A DNA stretch of 64,000 bases from Cenococcum geophilum (GCA_050273025.1 CP158635.1:16988001-17052000), one strand, 5' to 3'; numbered from the stretch's first letter, positions 35,691 through 55,800 are shown. Program-made: numbers and translations. The notes: generated by a model from the letters alone, not told the origin.

Positions 35691-36919
35691 AACTACCTAT
35701 AAAGTTCTATATAGGGTACTAAGTGGGGTTTAGGTTATACCCTTTCCAACTAATATAATATTTTAATGTTCCCCTTATAAGCTTACAGGCTAGTATTTCT
35801 TTAATTTCCTATTTATTATCGCCATTAACTTAAATTAGTAGGGGAGGTTTATTTTTTTTAATCTAGGTAATAGGTTATTTACGGCTTTCTATAGTTTATT
35901 TAGAGAGAAAATAGGGTAAACTTTAATTAAATTTAGGAGCTTTACTTTATACGCATTGGCTATCTTCTTAAAAACCTTATATAGTCCTACTATCTAATAG
36001 TCTAGCTTACGGCTAGGTCGTTTTGTTTTTTAATTCTTTATTATAACCTAGACCATATCTCCTACGGCAAAGTTAGGCTCTCGCCTATGCTTATTCGCCT
36101 ATTATTATATTAATTTCTAGGCCTTTTCTAGACTTATATAGGCTACCATCTAGGCTTTCTCTAAGCGCTTAGCATACTACCGTGCTTCCTTATAAGATGG
36201 TTTTTTGCGTATAGTCTAGGGTCCTTCTAGTCTTTCCCAGTTAAAGCTTATATAGGGTAAATAACCCATTTCTAGTTAAATAGGGGCAAATCCTATGGAG
36301 TTATAAGATAGGGTTACTTAGGCATAGTCTATTAGGGGTAGTAGTTTAGCTTAATTATCTTAGAAGTAGTTAATAAAGGGCCGAAGTCTCTAATCTAAGT
36401 ATTAATTTATAATTTCCGTCTAACTATCTATCTAGGGGTAATATGCGGTAGAAAGCTTTAGCTTAATACCTAAAATCTAGGTAAACTTATTCTAGAATAC
36501 TAATATAAATTACGGCTTATAATTAGATATAATAGTTGTCGGGAATAAGGCAAGTTGCCGTCGCATGAAGTATATTGCCGTCACGTGTCGACGTGGCCCT
36601 AGCGTGGTGAGGAACCTTAAGTTCCTCACCCCTTTCCTTATTCCTATTAATAAGAATTAACCAACATCACTGTAACCCTACTTGAGTAGTCGTTATTAGT
36701 GAGTCACCCTATATTTCTAATACTGATTAGTGGTTAAATACACAGTTAACTATAGAGCAGCTAGGTTTTTAAATAGAAGAGATAGTCTCGTGTAGGGGTG
36801 CTATATGCGCTTATATGGAATGGATCCCGGCAATACTGTACTACCTTAGACTTGCGGAAAACTAGTAACAGAAGTGTTACTAAGTACTAGGAGATACTAA
36901 GTTGCGTCTATTATACAGA

Positions 36920-37105
36920 ACAACCACATTTACAAAGATTTAGTCGAGTACTTTAGGTTAGAAGTGTTACTAAACCTACGGTCCTAAAATTAACGTCTAA
37001 AACGCGTTAAACAACTACACATACGAAGATTTGGTCGAGTACTTTAGGTTAAAAGTGTTACTAAACCTACGGTCCTAAAGTTAACATCTAAAACGCGTTA
37101 ACAAC
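36920..37105. repeat. ~91-bp tandem repeat (2 copies) in the 5' leader of Copia B
   Basis: acaac...agatttRgtcgagtactttaggttaRaagtgttactaaacctacggtcctaaa...aaaacgcgtta repeated at 36920 and 37011. Confidence 0.85.
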
Positions 37106-39004
37106 ATCTTAATTACCTACCTTTTAATAGTAAACCTACAAGATTCTATAAAGCTAAAAACCCTACCTACCTTTAATGTACGACACCCCGTCGATTCTAT
37201 ACCTACTATGGCGTTAACCTACCTAAAGAAGTACGAGAAAAGTATTAACCCGGAGACATAGGATATAGACATTAACCCTATAAACGCTAAGGAACAGGAC
37301 CTAAACGAATTCTTAGTATACCGTATAGTATACTATATAGACAGCGAATATAATAATACCGAGCTATAGTGTTATATAAAGGAGGACTTTATTAGATGGA
37401 TAAAGGAAATATAGGCTCTTATAAAGAAGGATATTATATAAGACTTCCGTAACTTCCTTTAGGAGAATAGAGTATTTGTCCCTATAGATAGGGGTATTAT
37501 TAGAGACAATATCTAGGAGCAAGTTATTAACGCAAAAGAAAAGCATAAATGGACTCTATAAGAGGTTAAGCACCAACTACGTACTAAGAGGAAGCTTAAC
37601 TTATAATGGAATTTAAATAATATGCTAATAGAGACGCGCTCTAATTCCATTGCTCCAGGTATAAGTTCTTACATTCTATATCTATCGCTTCCACCTCTAT
37701 CTCCAGCTCTCTAGGATCTACTAATTTAACTAGTAATATTAACTACTACCCCTTAAGAGTAAGCGCAAGATCCCCTTACTTTGCGATTTAATAACCTTTA
37801 AACTCTACTATAGGAAGATTAGGTACTACGCCATGTTCTACTAAGCCCTATATCTCCACTGCAGCCTATAAAGTAATCCCTACCTTAATCTTTAATGCAA
37901 TTTTAACGTGGTCTAATACTACTTAGAGGCACCTTAAAAATGCTTATAGAGCTTACGAAGCTCTATACGGACTAAGAGAAGAAGTTTAGTAGGGAACTGT
38001 ATAACATCCTTAATTCAAAGCTATATATCTTCTATAACTGTTGCTAGAAGGTTAAACTAGAACCTAACTAATATTATAACGCCTATTCCGTTATACTTAA
38101 GGGCCGCGCTAGTACCTTCTATTATAATTATTTGGTAGGAAAAGGATATAATTTTAACCGAATAATATATAAGATAAGATGCCACTTTAAAATAGAAGAG
38201 AATAAGTAGCAATATATATTGGAGTAGAGAGAGACTACCTTCCTAAGAATTATTGCTATAAACCTAGGTGTCTCTCGGCTTAATTATCTTTAAAAGCTCT
38301 TTAATTAACTTTAGATAATTTAGCGTGGTTTATCCGAATTATATTAAGAGGACCTTAGCCTTCGCGATTAAGTTATTAGCGTATACCGAGGTATTAAAGA
38401 ATATAATCTTGCTCTCTTTAACCCTATAAGTACTTATAAAGAAGTATATACTTAATTAAGATCCTCTATTAGCACCGCTCTACGCTCTTAAGAAGTATAG
38501 CAATTTAACGCCCAACTCTAACCTACCTTAATCGACCTAGCTGACTAATATGATTATAACTGGACTAATTAAACATATAGTAGACGTAGTAGGGGATATG
38601 GTAAAGGGTACGATTAATGTCGACTATAAGGCAATTATAGAGGTTCTTATGGAGGTTTACTTCGGAGCGATTATTAGAAGAAGTGCTATATTTATAAGAA
38701 GCTAAATTACTAGTTAACTAGACACCCTCTTAATAAACGAAAGGAGGTATATAATAGGTTTCGCTAGAGTATATAAAACGTTAGAAACTAAGAGGTTATT
38801 ATAGCCTATTTCTAAAACTTTCTGGTTTAATATAAAGGCGAAGAAGATCTTAAGGGTAAGGTTAACGAGGCCAAATAGCTTCTTATAGATATGGAAATTA
38901 AGGACTACTCTCCTAACTAATACTTTACTAAGTATGGTGAGGTAAATGGCATATAAACCATCGCTATCCTTAATAACTAATCTACGCTCCATTCTATTAT
39001 AAAG

Positions 39005-42000
39005 TGTCACGGAACCCCACCGCAGGGGCCTCCATAGGAGAGCCCCGTGCTCTCGCGTACACCTCGCGTACAGCTTATGTCAGCTACGCGTAGGTATATC
39101 ACCTCCTTACGCCCTCGACCCTTACGATCGATCGCGCAACGTCTTATAGACTCCTCAAATATATACGTCTTGTAGCCACTGCCCCGTCCCATGACATTAC
39201 GTTGCGCCTTTTTACCACTGACACCCAGCCTACGACCAATTCTACGTCTCTATAATACTATAGGCGCTGCCAGAAGCAGCGTGCCTATAAGTTACCTCAC
39301 TTTATACTTCTAAGGAACCTATAATAGTAAGACGATATTCCTTACTAGCCACTATATTAAACCTAAAGAATAATCTAATACCTATACTTAACCTACGACG
39401 CCAATCAATCCTAGGAGAATTTGATTTATTAGCCCTAGCCTTAACCCCTAAGGAGATAGATACTGATAATATTTTATCTTTTATTAATTATATAACTACA
39501 AACAAGTAAGCAAAAGGGCTATTACCCATTAAAATCGAAATATAAGACGCCGAGATATTTATAAAAATAGTAGCATAAAAACCTAATAAATACTACCGCC
39601 TTCTATAGAACTACTACCTAAAGCTTATACAAGCCAAGATGTGTGCTGCCTAAGATCGCGATATTATCTAAGACCTATAAGCTCGCGAGGCGCTTACTAA
39701 TAACACGCGTTAAGAAACCGAAGATGACCTCTATATATCTAAACGCGACGTCTAACAGTTAAAGAAGGCTAAAATCGTACTTATTGCTACGGTTACTAAA
39801 AGAAAAGGCATAATTAAATACCTATAATCTTAGCTTAACAAGCACATTTATAATAACGCTAGATACCTCTCTACTATATATAACACCACTTAAGTCTCTA
39901 CGCCCCTAGCAACTTTACCTACTTAACGCTTAATAAAGGGTTAGTGCCGAGCAGTCTTACCTAACGGGAACCCTTACTAAAGCGATAACAAAAGCTATAA
40001 TAACTAAACCTAAGCTACTACTGTAGGGTTTAATGTATATTACCTTAATCCCCTAGTTTTCTAGGGAGACCGTAAAGAATATAGCTACTAAAAGATATAA
40101 ATCCGCAAGAAACTAACTTAGAGCGCCTACCTTTTTCCTATAGAAGATACTAAGATTAGCTATATTATCGGGCGAATAAAGGGTATACTATTTAATAGAC
40201 TCTTCGCCTAATGGGAGACTAATAGCCCCTGGAAGTGGCAGTCCCACTAAAAAGTCCTTAACGATCTTAACCTAATATACCATGACTATAACCTACTAGC
40301 CACTAACTAAGCTAAACTACGTGCCTTAAAGATAAGCCCTACTAAATTATTTAACGAGTTTTATATTAAATTTTAGGAATATACTAGAGCCCTTATCTAA
40401 GACGATACTAAAGACTAAAAAGATCTCCTTAAAAAAGTTACTTATTGCCTTAGTTACGCAGCCGCCAGCCACAACTATAATAATGTTTATAATATGGTAG
40501 CAGCTATATAGAAGATTAAACGACGACTAAATTAGATTACTACTGTAAACCCTTACCCAAAGATCTCCCTATAGAAGCCCTCCGGACTTACTAAACTACT
40601 AACGCCTACTACCCTAAGCAATACTACTGGTCCTAATATTAACCTTTCTATACTAACCTTCCCGTAAAAGCTACTAGATAGAGAATATAAGCTACTCTAA
40701 AAGCTAAAGTGTTGCTATAGATGTTGTTAAGAAGGCTATTATAGCTATAGCCCAAACTGCCTAATAGTTAGGTTTAGTAGCTGCCGCCTAATACCTAACC
40801 TAGTACCTTAAATACCAAATATATTATTATATACCACTACTATATAAGACGAAGACGTAGTAATAGCGGTAGAGTTAGATACGGAAATAGAAAATACTAA
40901 GTCCTAGCCCTAAGTCGTAGGTTAGGACGCCCTAATAATAAGGGGATCTATATATTGGCCTACTTAATAGATAACTTAGTAAAAATAAATGGACGGAAAC
41001 AGATAGTTTTACCCATAATAGGAACTACTGCTAAAAAATAATATAAAAGCCGTTCTATAATTAATTACAGAGCTACTAATAAATTTATAGATATTTAATT
41101 TATACGTACTTATAACCTACCTACCTTACCCCTTACCAAAGCCCGCGCCCTATAACTCGCCGACGGTAGTTATACCGTATAGAAGATTACCTATATAGTA
41201 TAACTCTACCTAGATATAAATAGGCACTAGGAAGAACTCTGGGCCTATATTACACCACTTACTAACTACCCTATTATCCTTAGAATAAACTAGCTTAAAT
41301 AATACAACCCCGCCATTAACTAGAAAAAGAGAGAAGTAACCTTTAACTCTAAATACTGTAGAGAGACCTACTTAGGATATAGCCTAGCCGCCTCTATCTA
41401 CTCCCCAGGATACTAACCTAAGGAACCCCTTATTACCCTACCTATAACTAACTACTACTATATAAGTGCCGCGGCCTTCTACCACATAGCACATAGAAAA
41501 GGCTGGACCGTTACTGCAGCCTTCTAATTACGACTATATAAGCTTAATAAAGAACAGGACTATGTCCTCTATAGTAACAGGATAGATATAGTTAACCTCC
41601 TAGAAAATGATGCCCCCGTAGAACTCTACGGACTTTTACTTTTAGACTTTAAGAAGTTTATAAAGCTTAAAAAAGGACTTACTAATAAGGAACTCCGTAA
41701 GCTCCTCCCTAAGAGGTACTATAACTTTATTAACGTGTGCTTATAAAAGAGCGTAGATATACTCCCCCTACATTAACCTAATAACTATACCATTAATATT
41801 AAATAAGGAAAAACGCTACCCTATAAGAGACCCTACCTAATATTAAAAGACGAACTTCTAGTTGTTAAAAAGTATATCAACAAACACCTTAATAAAGGGT
41901 TTATTCGCCCCAGTATATCCCTAGTAGCCGCCCCTATCCTTCTTACTAAGAAGCTAGGAGGAGGTATTTAATTCTATATTAACTATAGAGGACTTAACGC

Positions 42001-45000
42001 TATTATAATTAAGAACTAATACCCTATACCGCTTATATATAAGACTTTTAAGCGGCTTAGTTAAGCTAAAATCTATACTAAGCTTAATATCATCGCCGCC
42101 TTTAACCGCCTTTAAATATAAGAAGGTAACAAATGAAAAACCGCATTCGCATTGCGCTTTAGCTAATTCAAATATACCGTTATGCCCTTTAGCGTATATA
42201 ACGGCCCAGGTAGCTTCTAAAGCTATATTAATAACGCCTTATAGGACTACCTTAATAACTTCTGCTCTGCGTACCTAGACGATATACTTATTTATAGCAA
42301 TAACCCTTTTAAGTATACTGAGCACGTTTAAAAGGTTTTACAGCGCCTTAGGGACGTAGGACTTTATATTAATTTAAAGAAGTGCGAATTCTTAGTTACA
42401 GAAGTAAAATACCTTAGACTAATTATTACTACTAAGGGTGTCTATATAGACCCTAAGAAGGTATATATAATTACTAAATAGTAAACCCCTAACTATATTA
42501 AAGACGTATAAGCTTTTCTCAGTTTTGCTAACTTCTATTAAAAATTTATATATAACTTCTTGGGTGTTATAGTATTACTTATAGCAATAATGTGAATAAA
42601 GGGCCTTTTTGTGAAAGGAAGAAAAATATATCTATGTTTTATCTAAACGCCTAAATGTAAGAAGGCGTTCTAAGACCTTAAAGATGCTTTTACTAAAGTA
42701 CCTATCCTAGCTCACTTTATACCAGGACGATAACTCTATCTTAAAACTAACTCCTTAAACCATGTTAACGTAGGTGTTTTTTCCTAGATAGGTAATGACG
42801 GTCTCCTCTACCTAGTTATATTCTATTTATCTAAGCTTATACTATAAGAATATAACTATAAGATTTATAATAAGGAACTTCTCGCGATTATATAAGCGTT
42901 TAAGGAATTTTAACTGGAACTCTCCTTAGCAGAACCTAACTAGCTAACTAAAGTCCTTACGGATTATCGCAACCTTAAGTACTTTATAACTATGAAATAG
43001 CTAAACCGACGCTAAGCACGCTGGAACGAGTTCCTCTCTAATTTTAACTTTAAAATTATATATAGGCTAGGAGTATAAGGTACTAAGCCTAATAGCCTAA
43101 TACGCCGCTTATAAGACCTTCCTTAGTTTAAAGATAACCCCTATAACTAGTTCCAATAATAAATAATCCTAAAAGCACGGAATTTGGCCCTAGGTATGCT
43201 ACCTATAATAGAGCTAACTATACCTTAGCTCTATACCACAGAACTAGAATTACCTCCTAAAATTAATAAGCTTATTACTATGGCATATAACACCTCTATT
43301 AACCTATTACTATATTAACTTATTACCGCAAAGACCGCTAGCGCCCGTACGCTACCGACTAAACTCTAAAGCTTAGGCTAGATTAATATAGCAGCCTTAG
43401 AAGTAAAAGAAAACAGGCTCTATTATAGAGGCCGTCTATTTATCCCTAACTTAGAAAATCTATAACGGCAACTAATTTAAATAGCCCATAACCTCCAATT
43501 AAGCGGCTACCTAGGCAGAGGAGGAACCTATAAGCTTCTTAGCCGATACTACTTCTGGCCTAAAATAATAGACTTAGTTAAACGCTTTATAGGCGCCTAC
43601 TACAGTTATAAGCGCGTTAAGGCCTTTAATATAAAGTACCAAGGATTACTGCACCCTCTACCAGTACCTATATGACGATGGGCAGATATCGCCATAGATT
43701 TCGTTGTTGACCTACTACCCTATAAGCGACATGGCCGTACCTATAAGAACATCCTTATAATAATATGCCGACTTATAAAAGAGCGCCACTATGTCCCAAC
43801 CGAAGGCGTAGCCGTTAGCGACGTTACTAACGCCTTCCTCTACGAAATTTACCGATTATATAGGTTACCTAACTCGATTACGTCCGACTAAGGTATATAG
43901 TTTGGCTCTAATATATAGAGACAAATCTGCTAACGCCTTGGCATCTCCGTTAAGATATCTATATCCTTTTACTATAAAACTACTAGGTAACCAGAAAACG
44001 CTAATGCTAGTATAAAAGCGTACCTATAATAGGTAGTCGCCTATAGTCAAGATAACTGGGTAGATTACCTCCTACTAGGTAAATTCGCAGCGAATAACTA
44101 CGTCTTAACTACTATAGGACTTACCCCGTTCTTCGCAAACAAGGGATATTACCCCCAATCCGGTATAGAACTACTAGAACCTATTAATAAGAAACTGCCA
44201 TATGGAAAACGCCTTAAGATACTACTTGCCGACTAGTATATAGACCGTATAAAAAATCTACTCAACTACTGTAAGGGAGAAATGGCCTAGGCTTAAGTAA
44301 AGTAGGCCTACTTCGCCGACTATTATAGAACGCCACCACTAGAGATGCGTGTTGGCGACTGGGTATAGCTAGATATACGCAATATCTTTACGCAGAGGCC
44401 TATAAAGTCACTTAATTATAAGAACCTCGGCCCCTACCTAATTAAACGAGTTATTAATAGGGGAGCCGTATACAAGCTAGAGCTCCTACCTGCCCTAGCC
44501 ACCCGTGGGATATAGCCTATATTTTACCTATAGCTACTACACCTTCACTAGCCTAACCCCTTACCGGGGCAGATATAGCCTAAACCCCTATTAGTACTAA
44601 TCCGAGACGAGAACGAAGACAAGAACCATAAGGAGTGGACCGTTAAACGAATTATCAACTCTAAATACTTTGGTAAAGGTAGAGGACGACAGCTCTACTA
44701 CAGAGCTATATACACAGGATTTGACATAGATTAGCCAAAATGGCAACTATAGGAAGACTTCGAAAATGTAAAGGATCTAATTAGCGACTTTTACTACGCG
44801 AACCTACAGAAACCGGGCCTAAGCAGAGATTTTATACCTAATCCTCTATGGGAGCCCTTATAGAGTTAAACCGTTATACATTACCACGTAGGGGTAAATT
44901 ACCGTTAGATTGCCGTTAGATTGCGGTAAAGTGCGATTACGTAACCGGAATATCGTTAAGATGTCTAGGAACTTTAACCGGCAGTTAAAGTTATCTAATT

Positions 45001-45348
45001 GGTTGGATTCTTAGATGCCAAGCCTTATTACATAACATTGTTTTAAGCCTTTAGCGATACCCCCTTTTCTTCTTTTCTATACCCTAAGTGTCCCTTTTAT
45101 ATATATATAGTAACCACAGCGTCGCCGGAGCTCCGCCTCTATAGGAGGGGGGGTAGTGTTACGGAACCCCACCGTAGGGGCCTCTATAGGAGAGCCCCGT
45201 GCTCTCGCGTACACCTCGCGTACAGCTTATGTCAGCTACGCGTAGGTATATCACCTCCTTACGCCCTCGACCCTTACGATCGATCGCGTAACGTCTTGTA
45301 GACTCCTTAAATACATACGTCTTGTAGCTACTGCCCCGTCCCGTGACA
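39005..45348 (+). mobile_element. Gypsy chromovirus C, full length (6.3 kb), nested in B; LTRs 39005-39196 and 45157-45348
   Basis: 192-bp LTR pair, TSD TAAAG, PPT GGAGGGGGGG; RT YLDDILIYS near 42270; RNase H, integrase, chromodomain EWTVKRIINSK near 44635; many RIP stops. Confidence 0.95.
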
Positions 45349-48300
45349 TAAAGTTAGATATCTTTAATAAGCCAAAGAAAAGTTCCGCGTTCTCCTTTAA
45401 CGATAGATACTTGGCGAACGTCTTCTATAGCATTATGCCAGATACTAGAGCCGTAGGAGTATTTATAGCAGGAGAGTCTTAAGTTTAAGCTCTTTAGTAG
45501 CTTAATAGCTCTGTTTAAATTAACTAATTAACAGCAGGCTAATATACAATTCGCTTTAGCAAGGATACTATAATCTTTTTTAGCACAATTAAGGTCCAAA
45601 CCCCGTTAGGATATATTACTTTCTACATTATCCCCATAAACACCCCATTCCTATTCTACATCTAAGATATAAATAAATTAGGTGTTAAGCTTGATAACCT
45701 TAAGAATATACTTATCTAGGGAGATAATTAGGTGCCCGTTATACGTAAGTAGGGTCACCCTTAGTTGCTCCTTTAATAGCTAAAAAGGAGCATTACTTAG
45801 AGCTACCTAACTAAGTTAGAGTTACATTAACTACACCATTATTTTAGCCACCCATCTATTTACTAATTACTTAGGGTCCTTTAGCGAGCAGGTTATAAAG
45901 TTAAGGTTAAGGTAATTAAATATCTTATAAAGTACTGCTACCACTACTAAATAAACCAGAAGTCCCCTGGCCGATTTAAGTTTACTTTTAAAGATAACTA
46001 TAACTTTAACTTCTATATTATTATAGATGTTATATATCTTAGCGGTAAGCCAGTACTCTAAGTTATTAACTTCTTAACCTCCTTCTAAGCTATACGCTTT
46101 TTAAAAGATATATTAGCTAGGAACGCATAGAATACTCTTTAATTATGCTAGATTAATATCTACCTAGGACCCCCTAATTAAATTGTTTATAATATAAAAA
46201 AGAACTTTTTATTTATGGAGTTTTAATAATAGGTAAAGGTAATAACAATTAAGGTTAAGGAAGTCCCCGTTAAGGCATATAATAGTATTAGAAAAGTAGA
46301 ACGATATTATACGCTATTACGCCGCGTATATAAGATTATTTCTTTAGAACTAGAGGGTGCTAGCGAAGAGCTTATCCTATAGATAGCTGTTAAGGCTGTT
46401 AATAATACCGCTGGCCCAGATAGGCTTGTACCTATATTACTAGTCTTTAGCGCCTACCCTTAAATAACTAACGATTCTCTACTATCTCCCTCTATTGCGT
46501 AATAAGCTAAGGCTATTTATAAGGTAATAAAGGAGGTGCGATATTTCTACGCCACGCGCTAGGTTAACGATGTACTAGGAATAAGAAATGGCCTAAATAC
46601 CTTAACTACACTTAATCTGCCACTCTAATTAAAGGTACGCGTATGGTGTAAAAAGGGAGGATAGTTAGGCCCACATAAACTTATTATAATTAATAGTTAA
46701 ACTTATACTCTTTAGATGCCCTATAGACCTACTTAATTCCACTTAACCGTTATTAAGCCCTACTATAGGGATAATAGCTTCGAGCCTTTATAGGATGCCT
46801 TAGAGGATACCCTAAAGGAGAACTATAATTAATATACTTTAGAAGGCGAAGGCAATTCTAATATAATTGTAGTAGACGTACTGCAACTATAACGCGGTAG
46901 AGGTCGCCTAAAGGGATTATAAAATTGCCAATATCTTGTTAATTTTAAAGAGCAATTTGTTACCGCTATTAAGAATAAAGATAAACTATTAATGGCCTTT
47001 ATAATAGCTAAAGAGAAGGCTAACTTTAAACTCGCAAAATAGCTCTAAAAGGAAGGCCGTATTATAACTCTAGGAGCTCCTTTCTAAGCATCTAATAAGT
47101 AGGAGATCGACAGTCTTATTATAAAAGGAGTCTTTAAATTTAAGAAATATAACCCTACTAAGTTCGATAGAGTCCGTATATTTAAGTTAAGAATAGTTAA
47201 TAAGATTAAAGGTAAAGCTACTAATACCCTATTTAAGAAGTTAAGGCTAGTTATTTAAGGTTATAATAATAATAGTAAGGAAGTAATCCTTACGCAATCC
47301 CCTATAATTTAACGAGCTAGTTAATAAGTTATTATTACGCTAGCTTCCTTCTTAATAAAGAATGGGATAGCGGTTTACCTATAAGATATTACTTAGGCCT
47401 ATACCCAATTAGAGACGCGCCTTTAGCACTTAATACTAGCATACCTTCTAGAGTAAATTTGCCACTAATATTCTAAGGATATAATTATAGTTATACTTAA
47501 GCCATTATATAGAATTGCAGAGGTAGGAACTTATTAGTGGGCTACCTATATCAAGCACCACAAGGAGAAGCTTTTAATAACTACTTCCATATTTAATCCC
47601 TACTTCCTTATTATAACTACGGGAACTCCATTTAGAATTATTAGCATATAAATAGACAATATAATCATCTTAGGAGATAACTAATTCTTAGCTCTTAAAG
47701 AAGATAAGCTAGTAAAGGCAAACCTTATAGCAAAGCTAAAGGAAAGACTTAACTTAGCAATACTATTACTCTTTAATAGATATATCCTCTCCCTAAATAA
47801 GGGCTCCATTACTCTACGCCAGAAGGGTTAAGGTAAGAAAATCAATATTATTAATATTAATTCTCTAAAGTAAGGATACGTGGAGTAACGCGCTCGCGGA
47901 GCTTATATAGCTTTTATCTATTAACCTAAGGCTTCCTTTAATCTCTCTATTGCCGCTTAATACTAGGAACTAACTAAGGATAATATTCTTGCCCTAAATA
48001 AGCGTCTTTTCTAGCAAATAAACTATCTTAATAGGGGATTACTTTACGTGCCTATTAACCTTCCTACCGCTAAGCTCTTTGTATTTATTAATAGATTATT
48101 TATAAATAATAAAGATTTTAGCTCCTAGCTAGGATATAAAATTATTATCGCAAATAAATCTATTAGAGAGAATAACTTTATAATCCACGGCAACCTTATC
48201 TATTAAAGCTTAACTAAAAGTAAGCGCGTTACTTAAAGCGTTTTAGCGTTAGAGATATATAGAATAGTCAGCGGAGTTAATATAGCAATTGCAATTGGAA

Positions 48301-48640
48301 CTACCCTTAAGATAATTACAGACCGGTTTAAACTTCCCGCTATCCCTATAATCGTATACACCGACTTATATTCCCTCTATAAGTATTTAGTTAAGCTTAG
48401 TACTATAAAGGAGAAGCGTCTTATAATCAATATTATAGCACTTCGGCAGTCCTACGAGCGTTAAAAACTCTTTAAGATCCGATAAATTAATGGCCAAAAT
48501 AACCCAGCAGATGCGATAATAAAGGTAAACCCAAATAAGGCACTAGAGACGTTTATTAATATAAATACTCTACGTACGTTAGGAAAACGGGGGGTGGCGC
48601 ACGAAATTTAGTTTCGCTAAAAGTGTTTTTGGGGCCCGGG

Positions 48641-48763
48641 GCTAGCTCTCCGCTATATTAGCTAACCCCCTAGAGCTCTACGCTAGCTTTCCGCCATATT
48701 AGCTAACCCCCTAGAGCTCTACGCCAGCTTTCTGCCATATTAGCTAGGCCCTAGAGCTATACG
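48641..48763. repeat. ~41-bp subterminal tandem repeat x3 in element D
   Basis: gctagctttccgccatattagctaaccccctagagctctac units. Confidence 0.85.
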
Positions 48764-49077
48764 CTAGCATTATGCTAGCTTATAGCTATAAAATAAACAT
48801 TATTACTATTATTGCGTTTATTGCTATTAGGGTATTAAAATCCTAAAGGCCTCCTAGTAGGCTCCTAGCAGGCTTCCTAGTAGGCTCCTAGTAGGACTTT
48901 AATTTTCCTAGTTATCTTAATCGCCCTGACAGCGGCCCACAGTGCTATCAGGTCCCCACTATATTCCCAGCAGCCTCTACATATCTTTACATACCCCTTA
49001 TATACCTAAATACCACTTATTTTTTACCCTTTCTTCCATCCTCTCTACCTAGGGAGGCACTACAACGGCAGCTAGCA

Positions 49078-49630
49078 GATGACTGTGGCCAGAACCAGAC
49101 GACCGTCGCCAGAACTAGATGACTGTCATCAGGACGACCGTCATCAGGACCAGACGACCGTCGTCAGGACCAGACAACCGTCGTCAGGACCAGACGACCG
49201 TCGCCAGAACTAGACGACCGTCGCCAGAATTAGACGACCGTCGCCAGAACTAGACGGCCGTTATCAGGACGACCGTCATCAGGACCAGACGACCGTTGCC
49301 AGAACTAGACGACCGTCATCAGGACGACCGTCATCAGGACGACCGTCATCAGGACGACCGTCATCAGGACCAGACGATCGTCGCCAGAACTAGACGACCG
49401 TCATCAGAACCAGACGACTGTCATCAGGACGACCGTCATCAGGACCAGACGACCGTCGCCAGAACTAGACGACCGTCGTCAGAACCAGACGACTGTCATC
49501 AGGACGACCGTCATCAGGACCAGACGACCGTCGCCAGAACTAGACGACCGTCGTCAGAACCAGACGACTGTCATCAGGACGACCGTCATCAGGACCAGAC
49601 GACCGTCGCCAGAACTAGACGACGATCGTT
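49078..49630. repeat. GC-rich minisatellite of 15/20-nt units with a palindromic core GACGAC-C-GTCRYC and a 75-nt higher-order unit
   Basis: Units gacgaccgtcatcag / gacgaccgtcgccagaacta / gacgaccgtcatcaggacca. Confidence 0.92.
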
Positions 49631-49749
49631 CGAACAACCAGTCAGCAACACCACGAACGACTTAATCGATCGATCGAATCGAACCAGAGCCTCGATATCA
49701 GCCCGCTACCGAATCAAATCGAATTAGATACCATAGACAGATATAGACG

Positions 49750-49932
49750 GTAGGCACAGACAGGTAGGCATATACAGGTAGGCACAGATAGGTATAGGCA
49801 GGCAGGTAGGCAGGCAGGTAGGCAGGCAGGCAGGCAGGTAGACAGGCAGGTAGGCAGGCAGGTAGGCAGGCAGGTAGGCAGGCAGGCAGGCAGGTAAGCA
49901 AGCAGGTAAGTAGGCAGGCAGACAGGTAGGCG
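49750..49932. repeat. (AGGC/AGGT)n tetranucleotide microsatellite
   Basis: aggcaggcaggtaggc array; source of the spurious LPAC-repeat ORFs. Confidence 0.9.
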
Positions 49933-50159
49933 GGTGCTAGGCCTAGTTAGGAAATTAGTACACGGCCGGTGGATCGTCAGGAATATCGCCAATTGACGAT
50001 TTGGAGCCTCTGCAAGAGGCTTCCCACTTATTTTAATTAATTGCTTAATAACCAAATTTAAAAATTTAAAACCTATTATTATTCCAATATAAATATTGCA
50101 GTTATAGAAAATATTATAACTATTATAGTAAAAAGATATATTATAATTTTTAAAATTAA

Positions 50160-50240
50160 TATTATTAATATTACTAATGTTGCTAATATTGCTAATGTTG
50201 CTAATGTTGCTAATGTTGCTAATATTGCTAATGTTGCTGA
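50160..50240. repeat. (TTGCTAATG)n 9-bp repeat with a RIP gradient
   Basis: ttattaata > ttactaatg > ttgctaatg units. Confidence 0.85.
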
Positions 50241-52877
50241 TGGGGCCCGGGGCTAGCGTAAAGAAGTGTACATAAGCAGATCAGCGGATCTAGCTAAAAT
50301 GACCCCGGGCCAGCCCCGGGCCAGCCCCTGGCTAGCCCCTACCACTCTCCCGTTTTCCTAACGTATATAAGTTAAAGGTTAGGTTAAGAGGGAAATTTAA
50401 AAAAGTTAAAATCTTATAGAACTTTAACCGCCGGTTAAAGTTATCTAATTGGTTAGATCCTTGCCAAGAGCGCCGCGCCTAATCAATTTAGGTGGCGGTA
50501 TAGACTTCTACCAACTAATTAGGATTTTCCATACCCGGCATAGAAAATCGCCATTAGCTCGCTTACTACTAGCGTCTTAGCGGCCTACCTGTCTTCGCGT
50601 TATCCACCAAATTCTACCAACTGCCGCATTATCGTATATCGTCTGGTTTTGTTATATACTGTCTGTTTGTATATATATATATAGCAACCACAAAAAGAAG
50701 AGTTGCCAGTGTCGGGAATAAGGCAAGTTGCCGTCGCATGAAGCATATTGCCGTCACGTGTCGACGTGGCCCTAGCGTGGTGAGGAACCTTAAGTTCCTC
50801 ACCCCTTTCCTCATTCCTATCAATAAGAATCAACCAACATCACTGTAACCCTACTCGAGTAGTCGTTATTGGTGAGTCACCCTGTGTTTCCAACAATAGT
50901 ATTTAATAGTCCGTAAATTTAGTAAATATAGTGGATATATAGTTAGGCCGCTTCTTTAGCATTAATATTCTTATAATATAGGATTAAAAACAGGCGCTTA
51001 CTAAAGCGGTTAACTAGAATTATAACTATATTATATCCGTTATAGTCTATAGGTAGCTTATAAAAGTCTATAAAGATATATTATTAGGGGCGTTCTAGTA
51101 TTAGGAGTGGTTTTAATAGTCCTAGGGTCTTATCTTATAGGATTATAGATCTATAGCAGCTATTACAGTTCCATATATAACGGTTAATATCTATAACTAT
51201 TCTAGGCTAGTAGTAGCGGTTACTAATAATCTTATAGGTCTTATTTTTTCTAGGGTAGGCCGTAGAGACCTAGGTATAAGCTTTAGCAATAAGCTAAGTC
51301 CGTAAGTTCTATTTCTTAGCTACTACTAGCCGTTCCTAATACTTAAGTAGTCCGTTTTTAAGGGACTATAGACTAGTAACGTTCTTTACCTTTTTACGGT
51401 ACTTTTATAGAGAGGGGGTTGTTTAGTTAGCCTATAGTAGTTTATTAATAAGGTTAAATTTAAAAGAGTTAATAGGATATATCTTGGCGCCTAAGGAGTT
51501 TATGCTTAGTTCTGCCTATATCTAAGGGTTAAGGTATTTTAGTTGTAGTAGCGTCTAGGTTTATAATAAGATCTTTATAGCCGTCTAGTTATTTAGGTTT
51601 TACTTACGCCTAATAAAAGCGTCCGCACGGTTTATAGCGCTTAGTCTATATATAATTAAGAAGTTAAACTAAGATAGGGTATCCGCCTAGCGTACCTACT
51701 AGGCTATAAGGGCCTTAGTTATTATAAAGTATTCTAGGGCCTTATAATCTAAAACTACCTTAATTAGCTTAGGGATCTCCTCTAGCTATATACGCCAGTG
51801 CTAAAAGCTAGAGATAATAGCTAGCATTTCTTTATTATAGATATAGTAGTTTAGCTTAGCATCTATTATAGTCTTCAAATAATATATAATAGGGTGCTAC
51901 TCTCCGTCTAGTTACTTTTAGAAAAAAACACTAGCTATTACGCTGTTTAAGGCATTAGTTTCTAGTATTAAAGGCCATTTTAGGTCAAAATAGGTAAGTA
52001 GGGGAGCCAATACTAGCTGTTTCTTAAGCTTATTAAAGGCCTGCCTATATATAGCGTTAAAGTAAAAGGGCTAGTCTTTTCTAGTAAGATAGTTAAAAGG
52101 CTAGGTAATTTTACTATAATTTTTAATAAAGCGTTAGTAGAAGTTACAAAAATATAAAAATAATTATACCCCCTTTATGGTCTATAGGGGTGCCTACTAG
52201 TTAATTATAGCTATCTTCTCTAGGTTAGTTTTAATTTTATTTATACTAATAATAAAACCTAAGTACTTTATACGCTTAATACTAAACTCTAACTTTTTAA
52301 TATTAACCTAGAGGCTAGCCTTATAGAGCCGTTATAGGACTTTATAGACGTACTCCTTATATTTTAGCTCGTTCTTAGAGTAAATTATAATATTATCTAA
52401 ATAGGCCGTATAGAAGTCGTTAAGATAGTTAAAGAGTATATTATTTATATACTGCTAGTATATAGCTAGTCCATTAGTTAGTCTAAAAGAGAGTACCTTA
52501 TATTTATACGTTCCGTAATAGGTTTAAAATATAATAAAAAATTTAGACCTAGGGTTTATCCTAATTTAGTAAAAGGCCTAGCGGATATTAAGCTTTGTAA
52601 AGACCTTAGCTCTACTTATTTGGGCCAGAGTCTTATTAAATAGGGGTAGCGGGTAGCGGTCCTTACGGGTTATATTATTTAGCTTATAGTAGTTAATATA
52701 GAAGCAGAGTCCTCTATTTAGCTTTTTAATAAAGAGAATAGGCGAGGTAAAAGGGGCTTAGCTAGGCTTAATAAAGCCCTTATTTAGGTTATTAATAAGA
52801 TACTACTTTATAGCCTATAATTTAGTAATAAACTGCTTGTAAAGGGGGCTAAAGCTAAAGGTATTTTCCTTACCCTG

Positions 52878-55800
52878 TGTAACGGGACTAGCCCAGTTAT
52901 AGTAGGAATGTCTCGGTAAAACACTCAACAGATAAATTCCGACGCTTTAACCAAAATCTGCTAGATTAATCGAATTACCGAAGTCTGTTAAAGACCGCGT
53001 GCGTATATGTGCACGCATCGACCACCAAGCCCCTAACTATTTAATTATATAATTCTCTTATTATTCCTTTCTCTTCTTTACGTAATGTCTTGTTCTTAGC
53101 AAGAGCTATATACCCTTAGATTTAGATAGAATTTATATTATTCCTTTAAATCTTCCCTAAAGTCTCTCCGCGCCCTTATATTACATTACGTCTATATTAA
53201 TACCCTTAAAATAGTAAACAAACTTAAATCCGCTATATTAACCATTATAGCCCTAGTTAGGGAATAAATAACTACAATATAACAGTCCTTTATAAATGCT
53301 TTAGCCTAGTAATAAACTATACTAAAAGCTTAGTATTAGCAATTAATTAAAGCAATATATAAAGAACTCTATAACGCCAAAGTACTCGCGTTAGAGACCC
53401 TAATAGTAACACCTATAAACGAAATTAAAATAACTATATATAAACTTGACCTATTAAATATAAACCCTAAACTAGTAATAGTAGCTTAACCTATACCTAT
53501 AACAAACCTAATACCTACTACGAAATCTAAAAAGCTCCCTAACCCTCTAATATTTAATAGAAATTAAAATAACCTATATCCCTTTATAACTAAGCTCCGT
53601 CTTAAACTTTTAATAAACTATAACTAATACCCTACTAAAGCTAGTAAGATTAGCTATGGAATATCTTATTTAAATAAAGACGCTATATAAACTATAGACC
53701 CATTCTTCTATAATAGCACCTTTATTAATTTTAAAATCTTTATCTCTCTACTAGAACGAATATATAATAACGCCAGCCGCGAATATATAGCTATTACTAA
53801 ACTTAAAAACCTATAATAACGGAACCGAGACTTTACTAGCTTCTTTTCTGAATTTTTAGGCCTTATTAGTAAACTGAATTAGAATAAAGCCACTAAAGTT
53901 ACTGCTCTTTGCCGAGCTATTTTAGATAAAATTAGAGTATAGTTAATAGATAAAGAACTACTAAAGAACTTACCTAAATTTGCTATAATATATTAATAAA
54001 TTAATAAGGACCTTTAATATAATAAATAGACTTATTCCCTAAAGCAAACTATACCTTATGTTTAAAACTTTATAAAACTAGTATATACCCTAAAGCGCGA
54101 TCCATTTCTAAAACCTAAAAGCCCTATATATAACCCTATAGACCTTAATACCCTTAAAAACTAATAAATAAAGAACACGAGCTATAAATATTATTATTCA
54201 TTGCTTAACGTCCGATTTAGATCCCTATTAGGCCCACGCGGACTACTCCTTATATACATATAGGGAGAAAACTCTATTTAAGAAAACCCCGTAATCCATC
54301 TCCCCGCCTTTTAGGACTCGCCTATAAGGCGCCTATAAGGCGCCTATAAGTCACCTATAGTGCTCTACTACCTTACTTTTTAACCTCTTTAGGAACCACT
54401 GCTGCCATAACAAGCCTACGGACGCGCTAGTATTGCAAACTTTACTCTACCACTATAGAGTCATTAGGGGGCGCCCGTTACTCGCCCCCCCGCCCTCTAT
54501 TACTATTTCCTTTGCAACCCGGAACTAGTTTAGTATATTTTAGCTAATAAGCCACTAGGTAACCGCCTTAAGGCCTTTCTATATTAAGAGTAGTGTATTA
54601 TAGTTCTCTGTGCTAGCTACTAAGAGTATTACTTCTTAGTTGGTGCGTAAGGGGCATAATAGTATTACGTGTTTTGGTGTCTATCTTAGCCAGCTATATT
54701 CGTATCTTAGGCTACCTACTAGGACACCTACCCAGTAGAGCCAGTCTTTTAGTCCTATTATTCCTATTCTTAAGAGTGTTGCTATTATATTTTCTGCCTT
54801 TATTAGGCCTTCTTAGAGCCCTAGAGTGTTTACCCCCTATAGCATTAACTATGCTACGGCTTAGGTTCCTCTTGCCTTAGTTAGCCTCTATACCTTTAGC
54901 TCCCATACGCCTCTCTAGCGTTGGTCTAGCCAGTGTTATATTATAGTAGATAGTTTCCTAGTATTCTTTTATGCTCTACTTTTACTCCTTTCTCTCTCTT
55001 ACTATTGTCTTTACTAGCCTCTTACGCGTCTCCCTTCCTCCTCTATATGGGCCTGGGCCCTAAAGCAGCACTATTCTTCTTCTGCTTTCTTTACCTATTT
55101 CTCTAATATGTCTTCCCTACTTTAGGGTTGTTGGTTTGTTCTCCTATAGGGCGCCCTAGGGTCCCTCTATAGTTTATTTAGGCGTATCTTAATATACTTT
55201 ATAACATTAGAGTTGCGTTTATTTTACGCCCTTTATATTACAGCGGCTTTAATATATAGTTATAGGGGGGGAATATTGGCTTCCTTTTTAAGCAGTGCTA
55301 TAGCCGTTTGCTTATATCCGCCTGTTATACTCCAGAGGCAGGCTGTTTAGACCTTTTAGAGTAGTTTAAGGAGTAATTTAGGGGGGCCTTTCTTAGATTC
55401 TCTAATGGCCTAAATACGAGACCTATATGTTATAGTTGGCCGGATAACTGCTATATATAGTAGGCGTAACCTCTAGAAGCATAGACCCTATATAGAATTA
55501 ACAATCCTAGATAATATGATATACTATACTTAGCCCTTATGGGCCGCTTACGCCGCATATACGCTCTACTAAAGCTTGCTATCTACCCATACTCCTAATA
55601 CCCTTAGACCCTAAACTGGTTAACCCCTAAAGCCTTAGATGCGGATTATATACTAAAGATCTGCAAATTAGTTGCGTTTTCTTATAAAGTGGATTAGCTA
55701 GTATTTCTCTAGTAAGAATTAGACTCTATATTGTCTTACCTATTCTATATAGGTGTTATAAGCTTTCTCTAGTGTTCTACAATTTTTTATGGCTGTTGGC

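What the first reader, a model, noticed from the sequence alone, without database searches (positions are those of the whole stretch)
44969..50462. Same 44-bp hairpin + CCAAT module in the 3' UTRs of an unrelated Gypsy and Copia
Gypsy C 44969-45012 GAACTTTAACCGGCAGTTAAAGTTATCTAATTGGTTGGATTCTT matches Copia B 50419-50462 GAACTTTAACCGCCGGTTAAAGTTATCTAATTGGTTAGATCCTT at 40/44 positions, with unrelated flanks. In both it lies between the pol end and the PPT. It is a near-perfect inverted repeat (AACTTTAACCG-C-CGGTTAAAGTT) followed by a second palindrome containing ATTGG. A position-conserved cis module shared across retrotransposon superfamilies suggests a host-factor binding site (CCG/CGG triplets plus CCAAT), an RNA packaging/dimerisation hairpin, or module swapping by template switching. 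I know of no description of it.
Basis: partly seen in the sequence, partly recalled or inferred. Interest (0 to 1): 0.75.

Follow-up and report, generated by a model that had tools for sequence, protein, structure and literature searches.

The report
Shared non-coding cassette in fungal retrotransposons
The 44-base match is real and is the core of a conserved non-coding cassette that many unrelated Gypsy and Copia retrotransposon families of one fungus carry just before their 3' repeat and have swapped among themselves; what it does is still open.

Summary
Window 44969-45012 and 50419-50462 match at 40/44 (self-BLAST E 6e-10), and none of 100 shuffles gave a hit. The carriers are a Ty3/Gypsy element nested inside a GalEa-type Ty1/Copia element, both RIP-degraded.

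The match is not private to this window. The conserved unit, block 1, is about 70 nt. It occurs in at least 10 flank-defined LTR-retrotransposon families: 58 sites follow a Gypsy pol and 12 follow a Copia pol. Where LTR pairs were found, it lies 144-350 bp before the 3' LTR (19 of 19 in sense). One Gypsy family carries it inverted.

A second palindromic block has two CCAAT boxes, lies in either orientation, and in one family sits inside an LTR. A (TA)n box before the polypurine tract (PPT) is also shared.

Three related Copia lineages show exchange. One lacks block 1. The other two hold different Gypsy-derived patches at the same spot, so the module was swapped at least twice.

Function is inferred only. 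I favour a DNA-level docking platform for host factors (about 0.4) over an RNA 3'-UTR hairpin element (0.3) and a neutral recombination hitchhiker (0.2). A MITE and a local conversion are rejected. I found no description in print.

The parts
36532..36536 (+). Copia B target-site duplication, left copy. The right copy is at 50896-50900.
   Evidence: The same 5 nt flank both LTR ends; read.
36537..36722 (+). Copia B 5' LTR (186 bp, TG..CA ends).
   Evidence: Direct repeat 36537-36720 = 50710-50893 at 95%. Ends read.
36723..36731 (+). Conserved Hairpin Site motif 1 of fungal GalEa Copia elements, with one C-to-T difference. It lies directly after the 5' LTR, where a primer-binding site would be.
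   Evidence: Sequence. The motif is as given in PMC5445492 (passages read).
37922..39004 (+). Copia B polyprotein, N-terminal part. It is cut by the Gypsy C insertion.
   Evidence: tblastn of Copia homologues P0002 and P0004.
39005..39196 (+). Gypsy C 5' LTR (192 bp). The 5-bp target-site duplication is at 39000-39004 and 45349-45353.
   Evidence: Repeat 39003-39203 = 45155-45355 at 95%. Ends read. RNA reads break off at 45157 and 45348/45349.
39200..44900 (+). Gypsy C gag-pol, RIP-degraded, with many stop codons.
   Evidence: Pfam RVT_1 3e-21, RT_RNaseH_2 1.5e-14, Integrase_H2C2 3.7e-7 and SH3_Tf2-1 (below cut-off), all in one frame read through stops.
44937..44944 (.). 8-bp ACGT-core palindrome (bZIP-site-like), 10 nt before block 1. 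It recurs at a variable distance in families F0, F1, F3, F6 and F8 and, RIP-altered, in F7.
   Evidence: family consensuses.
44955..45022 (+). Block 1 in Gypsy C. It comprises a 23-nt palindrome (44970-44992, one G-to-A RIP-type mismatch at 44983) and a 16-nt inverted repeat holding a reverse CCAAT box (44993-45008), plus conserved flanks.
   Evidence: In the DNA run X1, G replaces A at 44983 in 1.70 of 1.85 million depth units.
45098..45118 (+). Block 3 in Gypsy C: a (TA)n run followed by a short conserved box.
45143..45156 (+). Gypsy C polypurine tract.
   Evidence: A purine run abutting the LTR start.
45157..45348 (+). Gypsy C 3' LTR.
45372..48575 (+). Copia B polyprotein, integrase-RT-RNase H part.
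   Evidence: tblastn at 48-50% identity over about 1090 aa. There were 80 homologues, most carrying PF07727. Pfam itself finds nothing on the RIP-degraded frames.
48576..50362 (+). Repeat-rich stretch between the Copia B pol end and its 3' cassette. It is missing from the Copia relatives L017 and L044.
   Evidence: Tandem families D1, D2 and D9; alignment A3.
50363..50393 (+). Copia backbone box, shared with L017 and with the F3 Copias. The three lineages diverge right after it.
   Evidence: Alignment A3, with a run of invariant columns; A1.
50394..50515 (+). Gypsy-F2-like patch inside Copia B, carrying block 1.
   Evidence: 87.7% identity to L032 over 122 bp and 86.9% to L119. Absent from L017.
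50405..50469 (+). Block 1 in Copia B. It comprises the 23-nt perfect palindrome (50420-50442) and the inverted repeat with a reverse CCAAT box (50443-50458).
50515..50585 (.). Block 2 in Copia B: a roughly 43-nt palindrome flanked by RIP-altered CCAAT-type boxes, followed by a conserved tail.
   Evidence: The only block-2 site in the window.
50670..50692 (+). Block 3 in Copia B.
50692..50702 (+). Copia B polypurine tract.
50710..50895 (+). Copia B 3' LTR.

Best explanation
SHOWN. The 44-nt match is the core of a roughly 70-nt conserved non-coding block (block 1). Many LTR-retrotransposon families of one ascomycete lineage carry it, both Ty3/Gypsy and GalEa-type Ty1/Copia, between the pol stop and the polypurine tract. 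It belongs to a modular cassette: an ACGT-core palindrome, then block 1, then often block 2 (a long palindrome flanked by two CCAAT boxes, in either orientation), then in some families a (TA)n box. Spacing between these parts varies. The cassette is element-borne and has moved between families by patch-wise recombination. This includes at least two separate Gypsy-to-Copia captures at one spot. The patch edges lie at microhomologies, as template switching between co-packaged RNAs during reverse transcription would leave them.

INFERRED. The blocks act at the DNA level as an orientation-tolerant docking platform for host DNA-binding proteins, namely the CCAAT-binding complex plus dimeric factors on the dyads. 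That is, they are enhancer-like or U3-extension-like sequences that help the element to be transcribed or to stay accessible.

I put about 0.9 on the anatomy and the exchange, and about 0.4 on the DNA-level function. The confidence figure given is for the function.
For: Context: of 126 sites, 58 follow a Gypsy pol and 13 a Copia pol. One of those 13, L017, is a neighbouring element, so 12 count.

Position: in 19 of 19 sense elements with an LTR pair, the block lies 144-350 bp before the 3' LTR.

Families: 11 flank-defined families of two or more copies, plus singletons.

Exchange: alignments A1, A2 and A3 and the 87.7% patch. The F3 Copia patch carries a remnant of a Gypsy polypurine tract and LTR start.

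Pointers to the DNA level:
- The dyad symmetry runs through the centre of both palindromes, leaving no loop.
- Less-RIPed copies of block 2 have CCAAT boxes on both arms.
- The blocks keep their sequence while spacing and orientation vary. Block 2 lies in the same orientation at 35 sites and is inverted at 40. The whole cassette is inverted in family F4, which still reached 10 or more copies.
- Block 2 lies about 40 nt inside a 232-bp solo LTR, that is, in U3.
- RNAalifold finds nothing beyond the two local hairpins.
- Single-sequence fold z-scores are weak, -1.1 to -1.8.
- Sirevirus LTRs have palindromic repeated motifs with a CGG-CCG core upstream of the TATA box, read by their authors as regulatory (PMC2829016, passages read).
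Against: A cassette upstream of the PPT is not copied into the 5' LTR, so it does not sit upstream of the promoter that makes genomic RNA. A classical enhancer role therefore needs action from 5-6 kb downstream, or on the 3' LTR, or on circular or tandem forms.

Perfectly conserved 23-27-bp palindromes are longer than usual factor sites.

No binding, accessibility or reporter data exist.

The CCAAT box in block 1 departs from the usual flank preference (recalled). The apparent GATA site may be a RIP product, since 9 of about 11 block-1 sites found without the pattern have G there.

Palindrome-preserving double changes, in the block 2 centre and at pair 6 of the block 1 stem, fit base pairing at least as well.

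The search pattern itself fixed 30 of the core positions, so core invariance is partly by ascertainment. Only about 11 sites were found free of the pattern.

All loci come from a few metagenomes, probably one fungus.
Confidence: 0.4

Rival explanations
1. RNA-level element. The blocks work in the genomic RNA's 3' untranslated region as hairpins. Possible roles are an upstream enhancer of the 3' LTR poly(A) site, an export or stability element like retroviral transport elements, or palindromic contact sites for RNA dimerisation and co-packaging. The last role would also explain the exchange between families.
For: The cassette always lies in the transcribed 3' end, whether before the PPT or inside U3. 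One RNA-level rule covers both placements, and a promoter rule does not.

Of 82 pol-linked sites, 73 are in sense.

Both hairpins are predicted in both window copies and in the family alignment.

Because the stems are palindromes, the inverted cases keep the same hairpins.

Palindrome-keeping double changes occur.

Contigs from runs guessed to be RNA carry block 1 of two families (records 9 and 14).
Against: Fold z-scores are only -1.1 to -1.8.

There is no covarying stem beyond the palindromes, and no Rfam match.

Pairing runs into the loop centre, which RNA hairpins do not need.

The non-palindromic conserved parts are inverted in F4 and, for block 2, at 40 of 75 sites.

Quasipalindrome correction by template switching could create the double changes without selection (recalled mechanism).
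Confidence: 0.3
2. Neutral hitchhiker. The cassette has no function for the element. The 3' untranslated region is the one place that tolerates foreign sequence. Stable palindromes make reverse transcriptase pause and switch templates, so these blocks are copied from family to family and homogenised.
For: The blocks show a mosaic pattern of presence, absence and inversion among families.

Patches are bounded by microhomology.

Some families or subfamilies do without block 2 (Gypsy C, F5, F7), without block 1 (L017, and the family with block 2 in its LTR), or without both (5 of 91 pol ends).

Family F4 multiplied with the cassette inverted.
Against: The core stays nearly unchanged among Gypsy families whose pol proteins are only 26-44% identical to Gypsy C, while the adjoining spacers differ in sequence and length.

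Two independent captures at the same Copia position were each followed by amplification or retention.

The blocks contain well-formed CCAAT boxes rather than arbitrary sequence.
Confidence: 0.2
3. A small independent mobile element (MITE-like) that inserted into many retrotransposons.
For: It consists of short palindromic units, occurs in both orientations, and is present in unrelated elements.
Against: No stand-alone copy was seen. Every site that could be placed lies in the 3' end of an LTR element. Of the 126 sites, the unplaced ones are short-flank loci, family F6 and two class-i loci.

There are no terminal inverted repeats or target duplications at the patch edges.

The blocks move separately, not as one unit.

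The gene-rich half of the window has no copy.
Confidence: 0.03
4. A chance match, or a local gene conversion between the two nested elements of this window.
For: The two carriers are nested, only 5.4 kb apart.
Against: None of 100 shuffles gave a match, and the self-BLAST E-value is 6e-10.

More than 120 further copies exist elsewhere.

Copia B's block with its flanks resembles family F2 (87.7% over 122 bp). It resembles the nested Gypsy C only in the core.
Confidence: 0.02

Closest known systems
Conserved non-coding motifs of plant Sireviruses (Bousios et al. 2010, PMC2829016; abstract and passages read)
   Same: Both have highly conserved palindromic motifs with a CGG/CCG core in otherwise divergent LTR retrotransposons. 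In both, conserved features cluster around the PPT / 3' LTR junction, some motif copies lie outside the LTR, and the authors read the motifs as cis-regulatory.
   Different: The Sirevirus motifs belong to one genus of one superfamily (Copia) in plants. They are high-copy arrays mainly inside the LTR upstream of the TATA box. Here a single-copy cassette is shared across two superfamilies in a fungus, mostly just outside the LTR. It has CCAAT boxes, and there is direct evidence of transfer between families.
Conserved Hairpin Site of fungal GalEa Copia elements (Donnart et al. 2017, PMC5445492; abstract and passages read)
   Same: Both are short conserved palindromic hairpin-forming sequences in the non-coding part of ascomycete Copia elements. 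In both, extended versions are shared between families of one species. Copia B itself carries that site at 36723-36731.
   Different: The Conserved Hairpin Site lies directly after the 5' LTR, in place of a primer-binding site, and is specific to the GalEa clade. Block 1 lies at the other end of the element, has a different sequence, and also occurs in Gypsy elements.
Chimeric LTR retrotransposons made by template switching (Sabot and Schulman 2007, PMC1950507; abstract read)
   Same: Both involve recombination during reverse transcription between different elements, giving daughter elements with foreign segments.
   Different: [quoted passage not shown] Here the products are 120-150-bp patches, exchanged across superfamilies and recurring at one position.
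Retroviral and retrotransposon 3' RNA elements: constitutive transport element, upstream poly(A) enhancers, Ty1 5'-3' cyclisation and palindromic dimerisation sequences (recalled, not read here)
   Same: These are structured or palindromic cis-elements in the 3' untranslated region or U3 that use host machinery.
   Different: None is known to me to be shared between Gypsy and Copia elements. There is no sequence or Rfam similarity, and function here is untested.
CCAAT/NF-Y site clusters in LTR enhancers, such as human ERV9/LTR12 (recalled, not read here)
   Same: CCAAT boxes carried by a retroelement as docking sites for a ubiquitous host factor.
   Different: Those lie in U3 as tandem repeats. 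Here the boxes flank long palindromes and mostly lie upstream of the PPT.

Membership tests
Ty3/Gypsy LTR retrotransposon (carrier 'Gypsy C') | Domain order RT - RNase H - integrase in one pol frame | tested here: met
   Pfam RVT_1, RT_RNaseH_2/RT_RNaseH and Integrase_H2C2 occur in that order in frame 39200+.
Ty3/Gypsy LTR retrotransposon (carrier 'Gypsy C') | Two LTRs with TG..CA ends, a target-site duplication, and a polypurine tract before the 3' LTR | tested here: met
   The LTR pair is 95% identical. A 5-bp duplication lies at 39000-39004 and 45349-45353, and the PPT at 45143-45156.
Ty1/Copia, fungal GalEa clade (carrier 'Copia B') | Integrase upstream of a Copia-type RT (Pfam RVT_2) | tested here: met
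   The RIP-degraded frames give no direct Pfam hit. However, 80 homologues were found, most carrying PF07727 and some PF00665 or PF13976. The tblastn alignment is colinear with full polyproteins.
Ty1/Copia, fungal GalEa clade (carrier 'Copia B') | No tRNA primer-binding site, and instead the Conserved Hairpin Site motif right after the 5' LTR; TGT..CA LTRs of about 235 bp; a 5-bp duplication (PMC5445492) | tested here: met
   Motif 1 is at 36723-36731 with one transition. The LTRs are 186 bp, and a 5-bp duplication is present. Motif 2 was not located. No phylogeny was made.
MITE / independent small mobile element | Terminal inverted repeats and a target-site duplication at constant ends; stand-alone copies | tested here: not met
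   The patch edges are microhomologies without a duplication. No stand-alone copy was found among 126 sites. The blocks occur separately.
Sirevirus-type palindromic repeated motifs | Dyad-symmetric motif with a CGG-CCG core | tested here: met
   Block 1 is a 23-nt palindrome centred on CCG-N-CGG. The block 2 centre is of the same kind.
Sirevirus-type palindromic repeated motifs | Many tandem copies inside the LTR upstream of the TATA box, in plant Sireviruses | tested here: not met
   There is one copy per element, mostly outside the LTR. Only block 2 lies inside one 232-bp LTR family. The host is a fungus, and both superfamilies are involved.
GalEa Conserved Hairpin Site | Position directly after the 5' LTR | tested here: not met
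   Block 1 lies 144-350 bp before the 3' LTR.
Known structured RNA families (Rfam 15) | Covariance-model match | tested here: not met
   Nothing was found on either block at E up to 1 in window 33000-64000.
CCAAT-box / CCAAT-binding-complex site | CCAAT pentamer with the preferred flanks (flank preference recalled) | tested here: inconclusive
   The pentamers are present on both arms of block 2 in less-RIPed copies, and once in block 1. Motif presence alone does not show binding.
CCAAT-box / CCAAT-binding-complex site | Binding by the complex and an effect on transcription | not testable with these tools
   This needs EMSA, DAP-seq, ChIP or reporter assays.

The most novel reading that the evidence does not exclude
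In this fungus nearly every LTR-retrotransposon family, in both superfamilies, depends on the same roughly 70-nt block and its CCAAT-box partner to exploit one host factor. Lineages that lacked it, the GalEa Copias, acquired it repeatedly from Gypsy donors at the same position. That would make it a trans-superfamily, host-specific cis-element spread by recombination. It would be a new kind of shared dependency, and a direct handle on the host factor that licenses retrotransposition in a transposon-rich genome.
Probability: 0.25. Interest if true: 0.85.

Novelty: new variant of a known kind. Interest (0 to 1): 0.6.

Why it matters
Conserved cis-elements of LTR retrotransposons are usually lineage-specific. 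Gypsy and Copia elements share proteins only at great evolutionary distance and share no non-coding sequence. Here one nearly invariant block occupies the same place in at least ten families of both superfamilies. Its acquisition can also be read directly from three related Copia lineages: one without it, and two with different Gypsy-derived patches.

That points to recombination between superfamilies, probably in shared particles. It also points to some common requirement or common tolerance at the 3' end.

If the requirement is real, the blocks give a short, defined bait for finding the host factor by pull-down or DAP-seq. They would also be a marker for which elements can still be active in a genome otherwise blurred by RIP.

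If the cassette is neutral, it is still a clear natural record of template switching between unrelated retroelements.

Tried and rejected
- **Whole genome:** none is held.
- **Rfam:** nothing on the blocks. There were two weak MIR6136 hits in the tandem repeats, at E 0.17 and far below the gathering score.
- **Pfam on Copia B frames:** nothing even at E 5. The question was settled by homologues instead.
- **Pfam upstream of block 1 in family F6 and class i (L013, L003, L005):** nothing. These sites stay unclassified. By eye, L003 has a Copia-type RNase H end about 2 kb upstream.
- **Single-linkage clustering of flanks:** it merged nearly all sites, because further blocks are shared. Clustering on upstream flanks only was used instead.
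- **Test for 5'-3' RNA complementarity between leader and cassette, using duplexfold:** the first run timed out. The second gave long unspecific duplexes with no shuffle control. It is uninformative and was dropped.
- **RNA evidence:**
  - No RNA holder was listed.
  - In the one raw RNA run laid (X21, about 12% read), depth on the cassette was 0-0.7. Depth on the LTR was 15-57.
  - The LTR reads leave into other flanks at 45157 and into the leader at 45349.
  - No start or end of molecules was seen near block 3 or the PPT.
  - This says nothing for or against a function.
  - Contigs of X22 and X23 that carry block 1 are only guessed to be RNA.
- **GATA-site reading of block 1:** dropped, because copies found without the pattern mostly have G at that position.
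- **A-T variant of the block 2 centre as a third covarying pair:** rejected, because both changes are RIP-type transitions of the G-C variant.
- **Literature:** None gave a description of this cassette. Supplements of PMC5445492 were not opened and could hold extended motif lists.

Full report
**1. The observation**

The hairpin pattern, allowing up to three mismatches, hits only these two places in 64 kb. None of 100 dinucleotide shuffles gave any hit. A self-BLAST of the window reports 44969-45012 against 50419-50462 at 90.9% over 44 nt, E 5.9e-10. An ungapped extension reaches 58 nt at 83%.

**2. The carriers**

The window divides into a gene-like half (1-33 kb, about 50% G+C) and an AT-rich half (27-47% G+C) with a RIP-like bias.

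Gypsy C spans 39005-45348:
- Its 192-bp LTRs are 95% alike.
- It has a 5-bp target duplication and a purine tract abutting the 3' LTR.
- One frame, read through many stops, gives Pfam RVT_1, RNase H and integrase hits in Gypsy order.

Gypsy C lies inside Copia B (36537-50895). Copia B has 186-bp LTRs that are 95% alike and its own 5-bp duplication. Pfam finds nothing on Copia B's frames. Its integrase-RT-RNase H stretch, however, finds 80 homologues, most with the Copia RT domain PF07727. Full-length homologues align colinearly on both sides of the Gypsy insertion, and the alignment ends at 48575.

Directly after the 5' LTR stands the first motif of the Conserved Hairpin Site, with one transition. 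That site replaces the primer-binding site in fungal GalEa Copia elements (PMC5445492, passages read). Both copies of the module lie between the pol end and the PPT.

**3. The module elsewhere**

Two of them (L042, L086) are AT-rich chance hits. Almost all the rest come from two assemblies, with a few from three others. They probably represent one fungus or close relatives.

After dropping those two loci and the duplicate L026, and adding the two window copies, 126 sites remain. The letters next to the pattern, which the pattern did not fix, are also conserved. The unit is therefore about 70 nt long; I call it block 1.

A profile search of the 860 kb held (loci plus window) finds 136 block-1 sites. 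About 11 of these fail the strict pattern. They differ mainly by RIP-type transitions, and nine have G where the pattern required A.

**4. Context of the sites**

Of the 126 sites:
- 58 have a Gypsy pol on the same strand ending within 2.2 kb upstream.
- 13 have a Copia pol. One of these, L017, belongs to a neighbouring element that ends in its own LTR, so 12 count.
- 20 have no such pol although at least 600 bp upstream are available.
- 35 have flanks too short to tell.

Ten of the 20 belong to family F4 (treated in section 7, 'Orientation'). Most of the others fall by flank similarity into LTR-element families that are truncated or interrupted. Family F6 and the two class-i loci remain unclassified.

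Upstream-flank clustering gives these families:

| Family | Type | Copies |
|---|---|---|
| F0 | Gypsy | 31 |
| F1 | Gypsy (includes Gypsy C) | 27 |
| F2 | Gypsy | 18 |
| F3 | Copia | 11 |
| F4 | Gypsy | 10 |
| F5 | Gypsy | 6 |
| F6, F7, F8 | — | 3 each |
| F9, F10 | — | 2 each |
| Singletons | include Copia B | 10 |

In the F3 Copias, pol ends only 38-47 bp before the block.

LTR pairs of 87-96% identity could be found in 17 loci and in both window elements. In all of these the block lies 144-350 bp before the 3' LTR. Two rows with 76% 'pairs' were dropped as spurious, and two loci are antisense.

Of 96 pol 3' ends in the held DNA, 5 are cut by a contig end. Of the remaining 91, 73 are followed by block 1 in sense, 9 by block 1 in antisense, 4 by block 2 only and 5 by neither. 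This tally is biased, because the loci were chosen by the block.

**5. A modular cassette**

Reading the sequences side by side and as RIP-corrected family consensuses shows further shared pieces.

- An 8-bp ACGT-core palindrome stands 8-20 nt upstream of block 1 in F0, F1, F3, F6 and F8 and, RIP-altered, in F7.
- Block 2 follows block 1 at a variable distance. It is a palindrome of about 43 nt with 13-nt arms. In less-RIPed copies a CCAAT box flanks it on each side, and a conserved tail follows.
- A tolerant expression finds 95 block-2 sites.
- Of the 136 block-1 sites, 35 have block 2 in the same orientation, 40 have it inverted and 61 have none within 260 bp.
- Gypsy C lacks block 2. A sister subfamily (L046, L071) with the same PPT and LTR start has it.
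- Copia B has block 2 at 50515-50585.
- Block 3, a (TA)n run with a short box just before the PPT, is shared by the Gypsy C lineage and the Copia B/F3 lineage.
- Eighteen block-2 sites have no block 1 nearby. Four of these are false hits inside pol.
- In one family, block 2 lies about 40 nt inside a 232-bp LTR. This LTR is seen as a solo copy inside an F1-type pol in L071, where the flanking matches overlap by about 5 nt. It is also seen in L066 and L004.

**6. Exchange between families**

Three related Copias share a backbone box of about 31 nt just after pol and diverge right behind it (alignment A3).

- **L017** runs on into block 2 within about 28 nt and has no block 1.
- **Copia B** has 122 bp at that spot (50394-50515) that are 87.7% identical to the cassette of Gypsy family F2 (L032; 86.9% to L119). 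Both donor type and recipient type have the same 6 nt at the left edge and the same 4 nt at the right edge (alignment A1).
- **F3 Copias** have, at the same spot, a different patch of about 150 bp. It is nearly identical to Gypsy family F7 apart from transitions, and it ends in a remnant of that family's purine tract and LTR start (alignment A2).

The direction Gypsy to Copia is inferred from that remnant and from L017. So block 1 entered this Copia lineage at least twice, from two Gypsy donors.

Copia B's block is not a copy of the nested Gypsy C, with which it shares only the core.

Within F1, the subfamily of L057 and L058 carries an F0-type stretch with inverted block 2 (output; LTR distance).

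Patch-wise replacement at microhomologies is what template switching between co-packaged RNAs would give. Switching of this kind has been proposed for complex plant elements (PMC1950507, abstract read). DNA-level repair cannot be excluded.

**7. Orientation**

In family F4, homology among copies stops sharply about 390 bp on one side of the block. A 225-bp LTR lies there and again 6.4 kb away. RT and integrase lie on the opposite strand. Read in that element's own sense, a purine tract and the LTR start follow about 165 bp after the reverse complement of block 1.

The cassette therefore sits at the usual place but is inverted, and this family still reached at least ten copies.

**8. Function**

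Nothing here tests function, so the following is inference.

*For a DNA-level role:*
- The dyads run through their centres.
- Block 2 has CCAAT boxes on both arms, and block 1 has one.
- The pieces keep their sequence while spacing and orientation vary.
- Block 2 can lie in U3.
- The alignment fold finds only the two local hairpins.
- Single-sequence z-scores are -1.1 to -1.8.
- Plant Sireviruses have comparable CGG-CCG palindromes that their authors read as regulatory.

*Against a DNA-level role:*
- A cassette upstream of the PPT never reaches the 5' LTR.
- The palindromes are long for factor sites.

*For an RNA-level role:*
- All placements lie in the 3' end of the genomic RNA.
- 73 of 82 linked sites are in sense.
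- Palindromes fold the same way in either orientation.
- Two palindrome-keeping double changes exist: a C-G versus G-C swap in the block 2 centre and one pair in the block 1 stem.

*For a neutral reading:*
- Presence and absence are mosaic, and some families lack the blocks.

*Against a neutral reading:*
- The core stays nearly constant among Gypsy families whose pol is only 26-44% identical to Gypsy C, while neighbouring spacers differ.
- The lineage captured the block twice.

Part of the core's constancy is ascertainment, since the pattern fixed 30 positions.

I rank the readings as follows: DNA-level docking platform about 0.4, RNA element 0.3, neutral hitchhiker 0.2, MITE 0.03, and chance or local conversion 0.02.

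**9. Expression**

No listed run is on record as RNA holding the stretch.

I laid one raw RNA run of a related strain label and two runs guessed to be RNA on 43000-45420. Depth on the LTR is 15-57, from copies less RIP-mutated than the window's. Depth on the cassette is 0-0.7. No clustered starts or ends occur near block 3 or the PPT.

In the DNA run X1, the bin holding block 1 has about 2.4 times the summed depth of its neighbours. This fits its presence in many families, although that measure is not a copy number.

**10. Novelty**

Three papers were read in part. Together they gave analogues but no description of this cassette or of any non-coding module shared between Gypsy and Copia elements. 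The supplements of the GalEa paper were not opened.

I class the finding as a new variant of a known kind: conserved cis-motifs of LTR retrotransposons, and chimeras made by recombination. Its scope so far is one fungal lineage.

Noticed in passing
window 48576-50362: A 1.8-kb repeat-rich stretch sits between the Copia B pol end and its cassette. It holds a 41-bp doublet (48641-48722), an array with 20/35-bp periodicity (49043-49710), a 12-bp GC-rich array (49763-49950) and AT-rich short repeats around 50150-50240. Similar arrays occur in L066 and L071. The stretch is absent from the Copia relatives L017 and L044.
   Followed up: partly
window 1-33000 versus 33000-64000: There is a sharp change from about 50% G+C (gene-like) to 27-47% G+C with nested, stop-riddled retrotransposons. 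This is a RIP-type compartment boundary.
   Followed up: no
window 51606-52928 (-) and 60688-63480 (+): Two further degraded Gypsy pol remnants, 35-39% identical to Gypsy C at the protein level. The second runs towards the window end, so its 3' cassette, if any, is not visible.
   Followed up: no
window 36919-37100: A 91-bp tandem duplication at 91% identity in the leader of Copia B.
   Followed up: no
window 45157-45348 (Gypsy C 3' LTR): RNA reads of run X21 cover the LTR at depth 15-57. They carry T-to-C and A-to-G differences relative to the window, so they come from less RIP-mutated copies. They run into other flanks upstream and into the leader downstream. An 11-nt deletion at 45249 appears in 39 of 67 reads. 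Reads of the opposite orientation cover 43081-43566.
   Followed up: partly
L071 about 5315-5546; also L066 1027-1259 and L004 7805-7942: A 232-bp solo LTR with TG..CA ends is inserted in an F1-type pol, with about 5 nt of overlap between the flanking matches. It carries block 2 about 40 nt from its 5' end.
   Followed up: partly
L070, -382 to +1631 relative to its block 1: A unit of about 1150 bp (LTR plus cassette) occurs twice in tandem in family F4, and a third LTR lies 4.1 kb on. This may be an unequal-recombination product.
   Followed up: no
window 36400-36536: The 137 bp just left of Copia B's 5' LTR are themselves a repeat, found at 82-85% identity in L078, L048, L059, L031 and L073. 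Copia B therefore inserted into yet another element.
   Followed up: no
window 49134-49225 and 49414-49515 (-): Weak Rfam matches to the plant microRNA family MIR6136 (29 bits against a gathering score of 99, E 0.17) fall in the tandem array. They are almost certainly chance.
   Followed up: no
leaders of Gypsy families F0 and F1 (for example window 39197 onward): Both families begin their leader, right after the 5' LTR, with the same roughly 10-nt ACGT-containing word where a primer-binding site is expected. It resembles the ACGT-core palindrome of the 3' cassette. I did not test whether this reflects self-priming or 5'-3' pairing.
   Followed up: no
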